From: a virus
Direction: 5' to 3' (one strand)
IMG/VR virus record: IMGVR_UViG_3300027858_000541
Length of the DNA: 64,000 bases
Each line of letters begins with the position of its first letter. The stretch's first letter is position 1. Made by a program: the position numbers and the translations under genes. Positions 22,300 through 29,536 of this stretch are shown here, in pieces. The notes below the pieces were generated by a model. The model was not told the DNA's origin, searched no databases, and saw only the letters and a list, made by a program, of their open reading frames with translations.

Positions 22300-22971
22300 A
22301 TGCGTATTAAGATTGAAGGTACAGTAATTAGTAAGTCTATTGCCGATAAAAAAAACTATAATCACGAATTATATTCAGCTATTATTCAGCACTTGTCACC
22401 GGAAATAGGAGCAAAATTTCATCAAAAAGATAGAGAACTTCGGTTATTTACTTTTACGGATGTGTATTTGACCAAGATTAGCGGAGACGAGATGCTTTTT
22501 CACGTTTATATTGCAGGGGAAGATACACTCCTTATGAATCTGATTCAAGGATTGAGAAATTCGGAGTTGTTTTGGTTAGGCGACATGTGTGTAGGGATTG
22601 ACCAAATCAAGGAAATACACTCGTTAAAAAAGCAGAACTCTTACTTATTTAAAACAAAAGTTATTATCAATAATCCACATAATCAGGAACAACGATTAAT
22701 GCAAGATATAGAAGAATTTGAGCGGAGACTCCGATTAAATACATTGAAAAAAGCAGAAAAACTTGGCATGACTGGAGATATTAATTTCCGGGTGATACAG
22801 CCTAAAGTAAATGTTGAACAATATAAACAAGGACACATCTTTAGTTGGAAGTGTCTATTAGATGTTCGTGGTGATTTTGAGTTGGTGGAAATGATTTATC
22901 AAGTAGGTGTGGGTGAAAACACAGCAACAGGTCATGGATTCCTATTTGAAGCAAATCGGAGAGGGTGGTAG
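22300..22971 (+). CDS. cas6: CRISPR-associated endoribonuclease Cas6
   Basis: RAMP-like size; RLFTF motif; C-terminal Gly-rich loop GVGENTATGHG; first gene of the cas cluster. Confidence 0.9.
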   Translation: MRIKIEGTVISKSIADKKNYNHELYSAIIQHLSPEIGAKFHQKDRELRLFTFTDVYLTKISGDEMLFHVYIAGEDTLLMNLIQGLRNSELFWLGDMCVGIDQIKEIHSLKKQNSYLFKTKVIINNPHNQEQRLMQDIEEFERRLRLNTLKKAEKLGMTGDINFRVIQPKVNVEQYKQGHIFSWKCLLDVRGDFELVEMIYQVGVGENTATGHGFLFEANRRGW

Positions 22972-24299
22972 TAGTGAAAATACTACGTATTTTAAAGGAA
23001 GCTAATCCCTATAGTGAACTATTTATTACTAATGGGTTAGCAATGATACTTAAATACAATTTGATACCTTTCCATATTGTACAGACGAAATCTATGTATG
23101 CTATTGAAATAACAGATGATATTTCTTATGAACTCCTTACTTTTCCGGAACTAACCTTGGAAGATGGGGAAGTTTTAAATTCAATGGTTAATCTAAAAGA
23201 AAAACAGAACAAAATTGCTAAAATAAATGAATTTTTTAATTCAGAAAAGGTAATGACCTCTATCTTTTCTTACTATGAAACACTTGATGAATCGTATTTA
23301 AAAGTCTTTAAACATACAGGTTCTACATATATAGGTACAAATTTTTATGGCAGGGGAATACGAGCTGGTACTAGTCCGAAATCATATTCGGTAAAAGAGT
23401 CTGAGGCAATGTTATCATTTATCGGTTTTATCGCAAGTACCGTTTTACTGGCGTCGAATAATGAGGCAAACGCCTTTTTAGTACCGAAGGATACACATCA
23501 CTTATTGAGACCAGTTATGCGATTAAGGAAACAAGATGCACAGCTACGATACTTCTTTGGTGCTAAAGCACAATTACTTATTAATGCAGATGTATATACA
23601 AATGTGTTATATCATTTGCAATCAGAATCCATTATGAATCATTTTGATGAGGTTAGATTTATGCAAGTATCTGCTAGTGGGCAAAAACCACTACCGGATA
23701 TCAATACCCATGTAAAAATAATTCCTGCTTCAATCCCGTTAATAAAAAAGTGGAATGAGTTACTTACATGGTCAATTATCTCTGAAGACGTGCAATATGC
23801 ATTGGCTCATTACTTATTAGACCAAACAAAGATAACTTTTTCTAGACTGGTTCAAACATTATCGAAGAAAAATATACTGATAGAAAATACTATATGGAAG
23901 GACTGGAGCCCGTTGCTACCATCAAAAACACAAGAAATCTATCAACACCCAACCATTCTAAAGATGGGGAAGGGATTGAAATTTTTACAATATAAGAAGA
24001 AAGGTTATCCTATTCAAGCTCAATTATTAGTTTGTAGAGATGTGAATGGATTATTAAAAGCAGTACGTGATATTCATTTAGTGTACGGAAGAGTTAATGG
24101 CTATCCCTTAATGAAAGTAGAAGAAATGCGTGATTTTCTTGATTTTGTATTAGAAAACGAATCTGATGCCAATTCCATTGCAGATGCAATCCTATTATTC
24201 GGTTGCGTTTTGTATGATAAGAAAAAAGTTGACGAATTAGAGGTAAATGCAATAGAGGAAGAAACGGAAGAAGAAAACAAGTATATGGAGGTTATATAA
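22965..24299 (+). CDS. cas8: Putative type I large subunit (Cas8-like) with probable C-terminal small-subunit (Cas11) domain
   Basis: Position between cas6 and cas7, size 444 aa, helical C-terminal ~130 aa; assigned mainly by context. Confidence 0.65.
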   Translation: MVVVKILRILKEANPYSELFITNGLAMILKYNLIPFHIVQTKSMYAIEITDDISYELLTFPELTLEDGEVLNSMVNLKEKQNKIAKINEFFNSEKVMTSIFSYYETLDESYLKVFKHTGSTYIGTNFYGRGIRAGTSPKSYSVKESEAMLSFIGFIASTVLLASNNEANAFLVPKDTHHLLRPVMRLRKQDAQLRYFFGAKAQLLINADVYTNVLYHLQSESIMNHFDEVRFMQVSASGQKPLPDINTHVKIIPASIPLIKKWNELLTWSIISEDVQYALAHYLLDQTKITFSRLVQTLSKKNILIENTIWKDWSPLLPSKTQEIYQHPTILKMGKGLKFLQYKKKGYPIQAQLLVCRDVNGLLKAVRDIHLVYGRVNGYPLMKVEEMRDFLDFVLENESDANSIADAILLFGCVLYDKKKVDELEVNAIEEETEEENKYMEVI

Positions 24300-27420: not shown

Positions 27421-27442
27421 TAAAGGGAAGGATAAATACTGA

Positions 27443-29536
27443 ATGAGTGTAGCGAATATGGAAGAGTTTATTAGCCGATATTTAGGCATTCCCACCAACC
27501 AAGTGAAGTTAACGGACATTCAGCAAAAAGTAGGAGAGCAATCCGATACATTGGTCGATAGAAATGTTTGTATCGTAGGTGGTTGTGGGAGTGGAAAGTT
27601 TGAAGTAGGTATGTTTCTTAAATGGCTATGGGGAAGTGATACGATGTTTTTGCTCCCACGAAAAACACTGGCGACATCCTTATATGAAAGGGCTATAAGT
27701 GGAGATAAACGATATTACGGAAAATCCAATTGGTCATTACAACATTCTTCTCGTGCGGAGGATAGATTTTTTACAGAGCCGAACAATGTGACAACGATTG
27801 ACCAAGTGCTTGGTGGATATTATTTCCTTGGGACGCAAGATGCAATTAAATGGAAGAATACCATCCAAAAGAATTTGATTATGGATGAAGTCCAATTGGT
27901 AGACCCAGAAAAGGCGCTAATTAGTTATCTCTTTATGTTAGATACATGTTATGCGTATAACAGGCATTTTGCTTTCATGAGTGCGACAATGCCAAGTGCC
28001 TTGCGTACATTTCTTGAAAAAAGATATCAAATGGAAGTTATTGTGGCGGATAAACCTGCAGTAAAAAATCGCAAAGTTTATTTACACTATCGAAAAGAAA
28101 TAGATATGGAAGCAATAAATAAAGAAGAGAGCAAACTTATTTTACTTACCAATACTGTGAGGGAACAGCAAATTTTTTATGAACAGATTGAGGATAAAGA
28201 AAGAGTTATCGTCTTGAATAATAAGCTACTTCCTTCTGACCGTTTAAAAGTGGAAGAAGCAGTGGAGCGTTATTTCGGAAAAGGAGCAGAAGCAAGCAAT
28301 AAAATTTTGTTGACCACAAATATCATTGAGGCAGGAATGGATATTTCAGCTCCATTAATGTGGACTACCATTGCATCTGTAGACTCTCTAGTACAGCGAG
28401 AAGGGCGTATTTGTCGCTGGGGTGGGATTGGGAAGATGTATGTATTTGAAGGGCAATGCGCTATGTATAACGAGGGCGTAATGTCTCGAACGAGAGAAAA
28501 ACTTTTCGGACAAAAAGGAAAAGAATGGACATGGAAACAGCATTTAGAATGGGTAGATGAAGTATTGAATCCCTTATACGAAGAAATCCTCCAACCTCGT
28601 AACCTTCAAAGAAAGTTCCTCACACTCCAACGTGGTCGACGAAGTGACCTTATTCGAGATATTCAGGCAGTTAATATTATTGTGGATGAAAATCCAAGTA
28701 TCAATAGTTTTTCAAAAGAAAGTATATCTGTTTCTCTGTCTGAATTGAAACGAAAAATAGCTCCAGCGAATACACTGTATCGTCGCAACAAGCATGATGT
28801 CGAATTTATTCTCTATCCCCAAGTAGAAGTAGGGGATACGCTCATTATTAAGGGTACCGATTATGTATATGATGTTTTAGGGCTACGGTATATGCAAGGA
28901 GAAGACTGTATGAGTTTTCCAGAAGATATATCCGACTCCCATAGAAAATTGTATACACCTTATGTAGATGAACCATTTAGCTTACATGCAAAACTTGTAG
29001 AAAAAATGATGTATGCCAAATTAAAAGAAGATAAATTGTGTGAGTACACCACGAAAAAAGCTCATGTAATAAGTAGGGTTGCAGGTTTACATGATATTGG
29101 AAAACTAGATGTATTGTGGCAAGGAGAAAATATGGCAAATGCTAAACAAACAGCCCTCGCCCATTTCTCTCACAAACCAAAGAATCCAAGGGTATTGCAG
29201 AATCGGAATCATGCAGTTATTTCAGCTTGTATCCTCGAAAAAAATGTGGAAAACATCCTCTTTAACGTTGTCCTTCAACATCATGGTCGAAAAATATTAG
29301 ACAATGCGACCATCCATTTAGATGAATACGAACTATCTCCATTAGCATCAAAAGCCCTTCTCGAATATGGTTGGACAAACCCTATCAAAAAGCAAGATAA
29401 AAATAGAGATTATCACTACGGAAACGGTGTAATGCACCCAGCTTCTCCGGAATGGGGATTATTCCTCTACATTGTAGGTGTACTACAAGAAGCAGATATT
29501 GAAGCCATAGAAGAGGCTAAATACTTACTTCAATAG
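27443..29536 (+). CDS. cas3: Cas3 with N-terminal SF2 helicase and C-terminal HD nuclease
   Basis: GCGSGKFE, MDEVQ, MSAT, TTNIIEAGMDIS, QREGRICR; HD domain LHAKLV, LHDIGK, NHAVIS, QHHG, EADIEA. Confidence 0.92.
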   Translation: MSVANMEEFISRYLGIPTNQVKLTDIQQKVGEQSDTLVDRNVCIVGGCGSGKFEVGMFLKWLWGSDTMFLLPRKTLATSLYERAISGDKRYYGKSNWSLQHSSRAEDRFFTEPNNVTTIDQVLGGYYFLGTQDAIKWKNTIQKNLIMDEVQLVDPEKALISYLFMLDTCYAYNRHFAFMSATMPSALRTFLEKRYQMEVIVADKPAVKNRKVYLHYRKEIDMEAINKEESKLILLTNTVREQQIFYEQIEDKERVIVLNNKLLPSDRLKVEEAVERYFGKGAEASNKILLTTNIIEAGMDISAPLMWTTIASVDSLVQREGRICRWGGIGKMYVFEGQCAMYNEGVMSRTREKLFGQKGKEWTWKQHLEWVDEVLNPLYEEILQPRNLQRKFLTLQRGRRSDLIRDIQAVNIIVDENPSINSFSKESISVSLSELKRKIAPANTLYRRNKHDVEFILYPQVEVGDTLIIKGTDYVYDVLGLRYMQGEDCMSFPEDISDSHRKLYTPYVDEPFSLHAKLVEKMMYAKLKEDKLCEYTTKKAHVISRVAGLHDIGKLDVLWQGENMANAKQTALAHFSHKPKNPRVLQNRNHAVISACILEKNVENILFNVVLQHHGRKILDNATIHLDEYELSPLASKALLEYGWTNPIKKQDKNRDYHYGNGVMHPASPEWGLFLYIVGVLQEADIEAIEEAKYLLQ

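What the first reader, a model, noticed from the sequence alone, without database searches (positions are those of the whole stretch)
22300..29536. Adaptation-less type I CRISPR-Cas variant on a mobile element, with the array inside the operon (cas6-cas8-cas7-ARRAY-cas5-cas3)
Seen: a complete interference set (Cas6, Cas8-like, DevR-like Cas7 with four Cys, Cas5, Cas3), no cas1/cas2/cas4 anywhere in the 64 kb, and the array wedged between cas7 and cas5. Known: Cas3 usually has an N-terminal HD domain, arrays usually flank the operon behind an AT-rich leader, and adaptation-less systems occur on plasmids and phages (e.g. type IV, Tn7-linked type I). Inference: this is an unusual, possibly unclassified type I variant used by the element against competing elements or to control host genes. 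It would probably be missed by array finders and subtype callers.
Basis: partly seen in the sequence, partly recalled or inferred. Interest (0 to 1): 0.92.

Follow-up and report, generated by a model that had tools for sequence, protein, structure and literature searches.

The report
Adaptation-less type I CRISPR, array inside operon
A roughly 0.5-Mb Bacillus-type mobile element carries an intact DNA-targeting CRISPR-Cas set with no spacer-acquisition genes in view, and its guide array sits between two effector genes, a layout shared by a small, apparently undescribed clade on phage- and plasmid-like DNA.

Summary
cas6, cas8, cas7, an array of about 23 repeats, cas5 and cas3 lie on one strand behind one promoter-like site. 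No Cas1, Cas2 or Cas4 profile matches any other ORF of 78 aa or more in the 64 kb.

Main result: the array between cas7 and cas5 is not a one-off. The Cas8 family is small, 45 clusters among 1.8 billion representative proteins. Nine relatives were inspected. All five others that are complete through cas3 and have a cas7-cas5 gap hold an array in that gap. One chromosomal relative has its array after cas3. None shows cas1, cas2 or cas4.

- **Gene order:** as in subtype I-B, without the adaptation genes.
- **Cas5 and the Cas3 helicase:** closest to subtype I-A.
- **Cas8:** carries a fused Cas11-like tail.
- **Cas3:** has its HD nuclease at the C-terminus.
- **Subtype models:** none of the three subtype-specific NCBIfam models that match reaches its cut-off.

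This window's array is extreme. Every repeat differs, but both flanks are conserved. Spacers fall into two length classes. Units have duplicated and diverged.

A strain about 97% identical shows strong purifying selection on the cas genes, and array changes by deletion, replacement and point mutation.

No spacer target was found, and Cas3 has an odd Walker A (GSGKF). I rate it a new variant of a known kind.

The parts
22145..22171 (+). Terminator-like hairpin ending the upstream gene; marks the 5' edge of the cas transcription unit
   Evidence: 11-pair stem followed by a T run.
22239..22267 (+). Promoter-like site TTGACT-17-TATATT with a TG extension, 33 nt upstream of cas6
   Evidence: the joint-best promoter match (10 of 12) in 21800-30000 and the only one with a TG extension. 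No terminator-like site lies on the + strand between here and the last codons of cas3. This is a consensus match only; no transcript data.
22300..22971 (+). cas6 (223 aa), pre-crRNA endoribonuclease
   Evidence: Pfam Cas6_C 4.7e-09. TIGR01877 3e-12, below its cut-off. PADLOC Cas6b 1.4e-19 over the full length.
22965..24299 (+). cas8 large subunit (444 aa ORF; gene callers use 441 aa), with a C-terminal helical bundle resembling Cas11
   Evidence: PADLOC Cas8a profile 1.7e-51. AF2 pLDDT 88, pTM 0.85. Foldseek: 8fcj_I (I-B Cas8) 8.6e-06, 7tr6_C (I-A Cas8a) 2e-05, 7tr6_D/E (I-A Cas11) probability 0.94/0.90.
24300..25334 (+). cas7 (344 aa), DevR/Csa2-type backbone subunit
   Evidence: Pfam DevR 2.5e-39. 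TIGR01875 94.1 bits, above its cut-off of 67.3. 44-51% identical to the family's Cas7 proteins.
25375..26717 (+). CRISPR array: 23 recognisable repeats of about 29 nt (consensus ATTAAGATAGAAC-N4-8-GTTATTTAAAA), plus one possible decayed repeat near 26595-26622. Spacers are 22-28 nt or 30-35 nt.
   Evidence: Orientation and homology to the family's regular arrays (L011, L006).
26739..27389 (+). cas5 (216 aa)
   Evidence: PADLOC Cas5a 8.2e-12. 40-44% identical to the gene at the same position in six relatives. AF2 model (pLDDT 64) matches I-A Cas5 in 7tr6_P at 3.5e-05, and 9cp1_G and 4mjk.
27443..29536 (+). cas3 (697 aa): SF2 helicase first, HD nuclease at the C-terminus. Walker A reads GSGKF instead of the family's GSGKT.
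   Evidence: (best solved relative: P. furiosus I-A Cas3 helicase 7tr8/7r2k). GSGKF is also present in a second strain.

Best explanation
This is a working, adaptation-less type I CRISPR-Cas interference module carried by a mobile element of about 0.5 Mb with a Bacillus-type host. It belongs to a small clade lying between subtypes I-A and I-B, in which the CRISPR array sits inside the effector operon, between cas7 and cas5.

Proposed mechanism (inferred from homology):
1. One promoter upstream of cas6 transcribes cas6-cas8-cas7-array-cas5-cas3.
2. Cas6 cuts each repeat about 8 nt before its 3' end. This releases crRNAs with an ATTTAAAN-type 5' handle and splits the operon mRNA in two.
3. Cas8 (with its built-in Cas11-like tail), several Cas7, Cas5 and Cas6 assemble on each crRNA into a Cascade complex.
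4. Cascade recruits the helicase-HD Cas3 to matching DNA, most plausibly of rival phages or plasmids.

With no Cas1-Cas2 in view, the guide set in this element is hard-wired. It changes by unit duplication, deletion, replacement and point mutation (shown). The repeat flanks that make the crRNA handles stay conserved, while the central loop drifts (shown).
For: **Gene identities:**

**Single transcription unit:** a terminator-like site and then the joint-best promoter match lie upstream of cas6, with no + strand terminator-like site before the last codons of cas3.

**The array is real:**
- 13 motif hits against 0.78 expected, all in the array and all on the + strand.
- The repeat is homologous to the regular arrays of relatives: L011 has 22 identical repeats GTTGAGATATAACAGTAGTGTTATTTAAAG, and L006 has 16 near-identical repeats.

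**Clade hallmark:** arrays lie between cas7 and cas5 in the window, L008, L009, L011, L012 and L013.

**No adaptation genes:**
- No Cas1, Cas2 or Cas4 profile among the window's other ORFs.
- No Cas1 in the whole of BTB_502p or pJFP838A.
- No Cas1, Cas2 or Cas4 Pfam family within up to 10 kb (less where the contig ends) of six relatives.

**Purifying selection against a strain about 97% identical:**

| Gene | Synonymous | Non-synonymous |
|---|---|---|
| cas3 | 42 | 8 |
| cas5 | 15 | 6 |
| cas7 | 21 | 8 |

**Repeat flanks are constrained:**
- 10 invariant and 4 near-invariant repeat columns.
- Between strains, array differences fall in spacers and loops. The only two in semi-conserved flank positions move towards the consensus.
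- The fourth stem pair covaries: AU 9, CG 2, UA 2, GU 1. The covariation score is reached by 3 of 500 shuffles.

**Array dynamics without acquisition:**
- Related spacers 17/18 and 11/13.
- Between strains: a 77-nt stretch replaced by 18 nt, loss of one of the two duplicated 61-nt units, and a 16-nt deletion.
Against: - No protospacer was found in the phage or plasmid collections, IMG/VR, GTDB genomes, JGI metagenomes or the rest of the window. The target class is therefore a guess.
- Cas3 has F in place of the Walker A Thr/Ser that all five relatives keep. This may impair ATP hydrolysis.
- About half the spacers are 22-28 nt, against about 35-37 nt in relatives.
- The repeat hairpin is thermodynamically negligible, 0 to -1.6 kcal/mol.
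- No RNA data were found.
- About 460 kb of the element could not be searched for cas1 and cas2.
Confidence: 0.75

Rival explanations
1. It is a guide-directed regulator or silencer rather than a DNA shredder. Short (22-28 nt) or partly matching guides, together with a Cas3 whose ATPase is weakened by the Walker A Thr-to-Phe change, would let Cascade bind host or element genes and repress or merely nick them.
For: - Two spacer length classes.
- GSGKF is kept in a second strain while the gene is under strong purifying selection, so the change is tolerated or useful.
- No perfect protospacer was found anywhere.
- Huge-phage CRISPR systems with predicted repressive roles have been proposed (PMC7162821).
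Against: - The HD motifs and helicase motifs II, III and VI are intact.
- No partial matches above chance to the other 62 kb of the window.
- Relatives have GSGKT and 35-37-nt spacers, so this would apply to this lineage only.
Confidence: 0.15
2. It is a decaying system. After adaptation was lost, the array became a fossil whose repeats and spacers are eroding, and the cas genes will follow.
For: - Every repeat is different, with mean column identity 73%.
- Spacer lengths are irregular and one unit may have decayed.
- The Walker A variant.
- No targets were found.
- Similar B. cereus loci (cas3, cas5, cas7 only) were called defective 'I-B d1' in PMC7242445.
Against: - All five genes are intact and under purifying selection, with roughly 3 to 5 synonymous changes per non-synonymous one.
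- The repeat flanks are conserved while the loops drift.
- Degenerate arrays also occur in relatives with intact genes, L008 and L013.
Confidence: 0.07
3. The repeats are not mainly CRISPR guides. They would be a decoy RNA that soaks up the host's I-B-type Cas6 or Cascade (an RNA anti-CRISPR), or a row of protein-binding or promoter-like DNA sites (GAAC-N5-GTTAT resembles the Bacillus LexA box; TTAAGA-N16/17-TAAAAT resembles a sigma-A promoter).
For: - The repeat ends resemble I-B-type handles of the ATTGAAAC / ATTTAAAG kind.
- Several repeats score as weak promoter matches.
- The resemblances to the LexA box and to RNA anti-CRISPRs come from my own knowledge and were not tested.
Against: - The array lies in an operon with a complete cognate Cas set.
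- Homologous arrays in relatives are perfectly regular, with 35-37-nt unique spacers.
- Promoter-like matches in the region are no more frequent than in shuffles: 32 found against 36.8 expected.
Confidence: 0.03

Closest known systems
Subtype I-B CRISPR-Cas (canonical order cas6-cas8b-cas7-cas5-cas3-cas4-cas1-cas2; solved I-B Cascades 8h67, 8ip0, 8fcj)
   Same: - The five effector genes are in the same order.
- The Cas8 model's best fold match is I-B Cas8 (8fcj_I at 8.6e-06; also 8h67_L and 8ip0_J), including a C-terminal Cas11-like bundle and no separate cas11 gene.
- Repeats are AT-rich, about 29-30 nt, and end in ATTTAAAG / ATTGAAAC-type handles.
- PADLOC Cas6b and Cas3b profiles score best for Cas6 and Cas3.
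   Different: - No cas4-cas1-cas2.
- The array lies between cas7 and cas5 instead of outside the operon.
- The Cas3 HD domain is C-terminal rather than N-terminal.
- Cas7 scores 28.7 bits on the I-B model TIGR02585, against a cut-off of 72.75.
Subtype I-A CRISPR-Cas (Pyrococcus furiosus Cascade-Cas3, PDB 7tr6/7tr8; Archaeoglobus Cas5a 4mjk)
   Same: - Cas8 hits the PADLOC Cas8a profile at 1.7e-51, and Cas5 hits the Cas5a profile.
- Cas5 and Cas8 folds match 7tr6 chains P and C.
- The nearest solved Cas3 is the I-A helicase 7tr8/7r2k.
- The helicase-then-HD order equals a fusion of I-A cas3' and cas3''.
   Different: - No separate csa5/cas11 gene.
- Cas3 is one polypeptide.
- Cas7 scores 55 bits on the I-A model TIGR02583, against a cut-off of 212.6.
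- The context is bacterial mobile elements rather than mostly archaeal chromosomes.
Subtype I-G (formerly I-U), Cas3 with C-terminal HD
   Same: The Cas3 domain order is helicase first, then HD. There are weak hits to Cas3g models.
   Different: - TIGR02621 scores 71 bits against a cut-off of 400.
- Cas6 and Cas5 are separate genes.
- Cas8 and Cas7 are of the I-A/I-B (DevR) kind. The I-G effector 8b2x is only rank 5 for Cas8.
Adaptation-less CRISPR-Cas systems of huge phages and plasmids (Al-Shayeb et al. 2020, PMC7162821; Pinilla-Redondo et al. 2021, PMC9071438)
   Same: - Carried by a very large mobile element.
- An intact effector without Cas1, Cas2 or Cas4.
- Presumed use in conflicts between mobile elements, or acquisition of spacers in trans.
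   Different: - Those papers describe other effector lineages (a type I-C variant, type IV, type V and others), with arrays beside the genes.
- Phage arrays there are compact, with a median of six repeats. This one has about 23, embedded in the operon, with every repeat different.
Arrays with substituted repeats in adaptation-less systems (type VII, Makarova et al. 2025, PMC12669027)
   Same: Lack of an adaptation module goes together with repeats that carry multiple substitutions, read there as infrequent spacer uptake.
   Different: - A different type, with Cas14 as an RNA-targeting effector.
- No report there of embedded arrays, or of conserved handles flanking a free loop.
BTB_502p-type ~500-kb plasmids of the Bacillus cereus group and C. 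perfringens pJFP838A
   Same: - Homologous cas6-cas8-cas7-(cas5) and cas3. Cas8 is 31% identical to the BTB_502p copy and 35% to the pJFP838A copy (the latter over 43% of the query); Cas3 is 37-38% identical.
- No Cas1 anywhere on either replicon.
- Similar replicon size.
   Different: - cas3 is detached upstream.
- No array was seen within 9 kb of the cas genes.
- The pJFP838A Cas3 as annotated ends shortly after the HD motif (HDLGK) and lacks the rest of the HD domain.

Membership tests
Type I CRISPR-Cas | Signature Cas3 with an SF2 helicase and an HD nuclease | tested here: met
   TIGR01587 cas3_core scores 117.7 bits, above its cut-off of 102.45. Pfam Cas3_HD 1.8e-07 at residues 537-620. 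The H, HD and HH motifs are present. Caveat: Walker A reads GSGKF.
Type I CRISPR-Cas | Cascade subunits Cas5, Cas7, a large subunit Cas8, and Cas6 for processing | tested here: met
CRISPR array | Regularly spaced direct repeats separated by unique spacers, transcribed in the direction of the handles | tested here: met
   23 units with a period of 51-64 nt. The motif is enriched 13 against 0.78 expected. The repeat is homologous to regular arrays in L011 and L006. Caveat: the repeats are not identical (73% mean column identity), and some spacers are related by duplication.
Subtype I-B | Gene order cas6-cas8b-cas7-cas5-cas3 | tested here: met
   One search gives the coordinates; searches give the identities.
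Subtype I-B | Cas8b signature large subunit | tested here: inconclusive
   The best fold match is I-B Cas8 (8fcj_I at 8.6e-06), but I-A Cas8a is nearly equal (7tr6_C at 2e-05). The only sequence profile hit is labelled Cas8a.
Subtype I-B | Cas7 of the Cst2/DevR I-B family (TIGR02585) | tested here: not met
   28.7 bits against a cut-off of 72.75.
Subtype I-B | Adjacent adaptation module cas4-cas1-cas2 | tested here: not met
   No Cas1, Cas2 or Cas4 profile among 92 other ORFs of the window. The rest of the contig could not be tested.
Subtype I-A | Cas8a large subunit | tested here: met
   PADLOC PDLC01586 (Cas8a, CAS-I-A large subunit) 1.7e-51, covering 273 of 274 profile positions. Fold match to 7tr6_C with TM 0.54 by target.
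Subtype I-A | Separate small subunit Csa5/Cas11 gene | tested here: not met
   No such ORF lies in the operon. Instead, the Cas8 C-terminus matches I-A Cas11 (7tr6_D/E, probability 0.94/0.90).
Subtype I-A | Split cas3' (helicase) and cas3'' (HD) genes | tested here: not met
   A single 697-aa ORF with the helicase followed by the HD.
Subtype I-A | Cas7 of the Csa2 family (TIGR02583) | tested here: not met
   55.1 bits against a cut-off of 212.6.
Subtype I-G | Cas3g (TIGR02621) with C-terminal HD, plus Cas8u/Csx17 and a Cas5-Cas6 fusion | tested here: not met
   The domain order matches, but TIGR02621 scores 71 bits against a cut-off of 400. cas5 and cas6 are separate genes.
Adaptation-less CRISPR-Cas on mobile elements | An intact effector and array, no Cas1/Cas2/Cas4, on a phage or plasmid | tested here: met
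   -.
- The contig is 522,790 bp.
- The context holds phage-type DNA-metabolism genes.
- Relatives lie on 400-500-kb plasmids and phage-like contigs.

Whether the element is a phage or a plasmid was not resolved.

The most novel reading that the evidence does not exclude
These loci form a subtype-level lineage of type I CRISPR-Cas that has not been described. In it the array is an integral part of the effector operon, between cas7 and cas5.

In this element the guide repertoire evolves without Cas1-Cas2, by unit duplication, deletion and point mutation. The repeats would have diversified under selection (for example against recombinational loss of spacers) while their handles were kept.

The short-guide class and the Walker-A-altered Cas3 could mark a shift towards binding or regulation rather than processive DNA degradation.
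Probability: 0.3. Interest if true: 0.75.

Novelty: new variant of a known kind. Interest (0 to 1): 0.62.

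Why it matters
- **Detection:** an array embedded in the effector operon, with non-identical repeats, can escape repeat-based array finders. Here Rfam models found nothing, and Tandem Repeats Finder reported only the duplicated unit. Related B. cereus loci have been scored as defective (PMC7242445). CRISPR use by giant plasmids and phages of Bacillota may therefore be under-counted.
- **Evolution:** the clade runs from perfectly regular arrays (L011, L006) to fully individualised repeats (this window). 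That offers a way to ask what happens to an array once acquisition stops, and which repeat positions Cas6 and Cascade really need.
- **Engineering:** naturally non-identical yet functional repeats would be useful for building recombination-stable multiplex arrays.
- **Classification:** the mix of I-A-like parts, I-B gene order and I-G-like Cas3 architecture bears on how these subtypes are related.

Tried and rejected
**Searches for near-identical DNA**
- Megablast of the locus and of window 1-22000 against the phage and plasmid collections: no match.

**Searches for relatives**
- The search for related loci with Cas7 or the Cas8 alignments in IMG/VR and GTDB genomes: no confirmed relatives.
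- The word-based protein search found only one relative. The exhaustive HMMER search was needed.

**Own genome**
- Not held, so the remaining ~460 kb could not be scanned.

**Spacer targets**
- Whole-array blastn against phages and plasmids gave only chance-level hits, with E of 0.1 or more.
- The L011 array against phages gave none.
- Exact or degenerate spacer patterns in IMG/VR, JGI metagenomes and GTDB gave nothing.
- The single exception was a 22-specified-base hit at the 3' end of a 313-aa ORF that looks transketolase-like to me (not searched), in a Lachnospiraceae MAG. Outside the forced positions only about half the bases agree, and about 0.07 or more such hits are expected by chance, so I treat it as chance.
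- Spacers against the rest of the window: only 11-14-nt chance matches.

**Other dead ends**
- The first PADLOC scan of the ORF set was swamped by the UvrD helicase and had to be repeated.
- One literature search was wasted on a setting that was too loose.
- Rfam scan of the array: no CRISPR family.
- Folding single repeats: no stable hairpin. The stem rests on conservation and modest covariation only.
- Strain variant L014 turned out to be 100% identical to the window and gave no new information.
- The Cas8 family has a 62%-conserved internal Met that could start a separate Cas11. The window has Leu there, and I did not pursue it.

Full report
**1. What is there**

Between 22300 and 29536, five ORFs lie on the + strand.

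| Gene | Coordinates | Size | Main evidence |
|---|---|---|---|
| cas6 | 22300-22971 | 223 aa | Pfam Cas6_C 4.7e-09; PADLOC Cas6b 1.4e-19 |
| cas8 | 22965-24299 | 444 aa | PADLOC Cas8a large-subunit profile 1.7e-51 over 273 of 274 positions |
| cas7 | 24300-25334 | 344 aa | Pfam DevR 2.5e-39; TIGR01875 above cut-off |
| cas5 | 26739-27389 | 216 aa | PADLOC Cas5a 8.2e-12 |
| cas3 | 27443-29536 | 697 aa | cas3_core 117.7 bits against a cut-off of 102.45 |

- The cas8 ORF has no Pfam or NCBIfam hit. An AlphaFold model built on 29 family members (pLDDT 88, pTM 0.85) matches I-B Cas8 (8fcj_I at 8.6e-06; also 8h67_L and 8ip0_J) and I-A Cas8a (7tr6_C at 2e-05). Its C-terminal helical bundle matches I-A Cas11 (7tr6_D/E, probability 0.94/0.90). 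The small subunit is therefore built into Cas8.
- A moderate-confidence cas5 model (pLDDT 64) hits I-A Cas5 (7tr6_P at 3.5e-05, 9cp1_G, 4mjk).
- In Cas3 the helicase comes first and the HD domain lies at residues 509-631. Its nearest solved relative is the P. furiosus I-A Cas3 helicase (7tr8/7r2k at about 4e-10).
- A terminator-like hairpin (22145-22171) and the joint-best promoter match of the region (22239-22267; the only one with a TG extension) precede cas6. No terminator-like site lies on the + strand before the last codons of cas3. I infer one transcription unit; there are no transcript data.

**2. The array**

The 1.4-kb gap between cas7 and cas5 holds 23 recognisable units with a period of 51-64 nt, plus one possible decayed unit.

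- Information content places the repeat from 8-9 nt before xAAC to 5-6 nt after GTTAT. The consensus is ATTAAGATAGAAC-N4-8-GTTATTTAAAA, about 29 nt.
- No two repeats are identical, and mean column identity is 73%. Even so, 10 columns are invariant and 4 are nearly so.
- The motif RAACNNNNNGTTATT occurs 13 times in the window. All are in the array and on the + strand, against 0.78 expected.
- AAC/GTT plus one inner pair can form a short stem. The inner pair is a standard pair in 14 of 19 units (AU 9, CG 2, UA 2, GU 1). The covariation score is reached by 3 of 500 shuffles.
- The stem is energetically negligible on its own, as is common for AT-rich I-A/I-B repeats (my own knowledge).
- With a 29-nt repeat, spacers are 22-28 nt (11 of them) or 30-35 nt (10 of them).
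- Spacers 17/18 and 11/13 are clearly related to each other. Spacers 6/10/12 are related only marginally, at the top of the shuffled range. A two-unit block is duplicated at 81% identity. Part of the array therefore grew by duplication and divergence.

**3. Adaptation genes**

PADLOC holds Cas1, Cas2 and Cas4 profiles. None appears in the family lists for the 92 other ORFs of 78 aa or more. Its counterpart in L004 has a Pfam PDDEXK_1 hit. It is not a Cas4. The window covers 22 kb upstream and 34 kb downstream of the locus. The remainder of the 522,790-bp contig could not be read.

**4. Relatives change the picture**

An exhaustive HMMER search of 1.84 billion representative proteins found only 45 Cas8 relatives. 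Contexts were retrieved for nine.

| Locus | Context | Array position | Repeats |
|---|---|---|---|
| L011 | phage-like (DNA pol A, VapE, sigma factor) | cas7 to cas5 | 22 identical 30-nt repeats |
| L012 | phage-like | cas7 to cas5 | 11 near-identical |
| L013 | phage-like | cas7 to cas5 | about 17, moderately variable |
| L008 | phage-like | cas7 to cas5 and cas5 to cas3 | 18, all different |
| L009 | many small unannotated ORFs | mini-arrays in both gaps | 5 |
| L006 | 4.7-Mb chromosome | after cas3 | 16 near-identical |
| BTB_502p (B. cereus group, cluster of 36) | ~500-kb plasmid | none seen nearby; cas3 detached | - |
| pJFP838A (C. perfringens) | 404-kb plasmid | none seen nearby; cas3 detached | - |

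L004 and L005 are cut off within or just after cas7.

- The repeats are plainly homologous across the clade. Compare GTTGAGATATAAC-AGTAGT-GTTATTTAAAG with this window's consensus.
- No Pfam Cas1, Cas2 or Cas4 family is listed within up to 10 kb (less where the contig ends) of any of these loci. Neither megaplasmid encodes a Cas1 anywhere.
- The embedded array, helicase-HD Cas3 and missing adaptation genes are therefore clade traits. The individualised repeats are the extreme end of a gradient.

**5. Is it alive?**

Three public metagenomes hold the element: marine (2014, possibly the source), soil (2025) and bioreactor sludge (2017). The soil and sludge versions are about 97% identical to the window.

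| Gene (window against the soil strain) | Synonymous | Non-synonymous |
|---|---|---|
| cas3 | 42 | 8 |
| cas5 | 15 | 6 |
| cas7 | 21 | 8 |

- This is strong purifying selection. Cas3 is 689/697 identical at the protein level.
- In the array stretches that could be compared, differences lie in spacers and repeat loops. The only two in semi-conserved flank positions move towards the consensus.
- Larger changes between strains are a 77-nt stretch (spacer 14, repeat 15 and part of spacer 15) replaced by 18 nt, loss of one of the two duplicated 61-nt units, and a 16-nt deletion.
- The proteins and crRNA handles are thus maintained. The guide content turns over by recombination and mutation, not by polarised acquisition.

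**6. Oddities**

- Cas3's Walker A reads GSGKF. All five aligned relatives have GSGKT.
- The Phe needs two base changes from a Thr codon and is present in the second strain, so it is not an assembly error.
- It may weaken ATP hydrolysis (inference from the general role of the Walker A Thr/Ser). Helicase motifs II, III and VI and the HD motifs are intact.
- Together with the short spacer class, this keeps a regulatory or binding-only reading open.

**7. Targets**

None was identified. Searches covered whole-array blastn against phages and plasmids, exact or degenerate spacer scans of IMG/VR, GTDB genomes and JGI metagenomes, and the rest of the window. They gave nothing above chance. The claimed role in conflict between mobile elements is therefore inferred from analogy with other adaptation-less systems on mobile elements (PMC7162821, PMC9071438).

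**8. Classification and novelty**

- Type I membership is met.
- The gene order is I-B.
- Cas5, the Cas3 helicase and the only Cas8 sequence profile point to I-A.
- The fused Cas11-like domain is I-B-like.
- The Cas3 domain order is I-G-like, or equals a cas3'-cas3'' fusion.
- The subtype-specific NCBIfam models for I-A Cas7, I-B Cas7 and I-G Cas3 all fall far below their cut-offs.
- The 2025 classification update does not mention such a variant in the passages I searched. It does note that adaptation-less type VII arrays carry substituted repeats.
- A B. cereus survey called 'cas3, cas5, cas7 only' loci defective. Some of those may be BTB_502p-type loci with unrecognised cas6 and cas8 (inference, not tested).
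- Full-text searches found no description of arrays between cas7 and cas5.

I therefore rate it a new variant of a known kind. It is real, coherent and probably functional, but built from known parts, and its target and activity are still unknown.

Noticed in passing
window 29533-29645: About 14 tandem copies of AGATAGAC begin within the cas3 stop codon and run up to the next ORF (29667). The long contigs from all three metagenome runs that cover cas3 end at 29532, so the repeat breaks assemblies.
   Followed up: no
It lies about 15 kb upstream of cas6. A counterpart (897 aa, with a Pfam PDDEXK_1 hit) lies 5 kb upstream of cas6 in the closest relative L004, and a 32%-identical copy is on pJFP838A. 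It may be a conserved neighbour of this CRISPR clade.
   Followed up: partly
Nearly the same motif (TTGACTATAGTT) occurs twice upstream of cas6 on B. thuringiensis BTB_502p. This suggests a promoter or operator shared across these giant elements.
   Followed up: partly
window 32093-32854 (-): A full-length Rok homologue (Pfam Rok_N and WHD_Rok on the identical contig L003) and a DUF1256 protein (33068-33643) lie just downstream. These point to a Bacillus-type host.
   Followed up: partly
window 25375-26717: Several repeats read TTAAGA-N16/17-TAAAAT, a weak sigma-A-like promoter match. The core GAAC-N5-GTTAT resembles the Bacillus LexA box GAAC-N4-GTTC (my own knowledge). Both are probably by-products of AT-richness, since promoter-like hits in the region are not above the shuffled expectation.
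   Followed up: partly
L001 18026-18615 (BTB_502p): Ten copies of a 32-nt repeat (AAAACTGCATATTAGTACGGAAGTTAGGAGCA) at irregular spacing of 31-106 nt, about 6 kb downstream of the cas5-like gene. Their nature is unknown.
   Followed up: no
L010 4694-4718 (Lachnospiraceae MAG): Spacers 17 and 18, read on the reverse strand, resemble the last codons (EKILGFIG-stop) of a 313-aa ORF that looks transketolase-like to me (not searched). Most of the match was forced by the search pattern, and I treat it as chance.
   Followed up: partly
window 24300-25334 and alignment A8: Cas7 of this clade has an invariant CxxC (C76, C79) plus C106. The window adds C109 where the relatives have Asp. This may be a metal site.
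   Followed up: no
L006 15287-16295; L011 12299-13700: These relatives have perfectly regular arrays with unique 35-37-nt spacers but no cas1 or cas2 within up to 10 kb (L011's contig ends just after cas3). They may acquire spacers in trans from a host I-B-type system with similar repeats.
   Followed up: no
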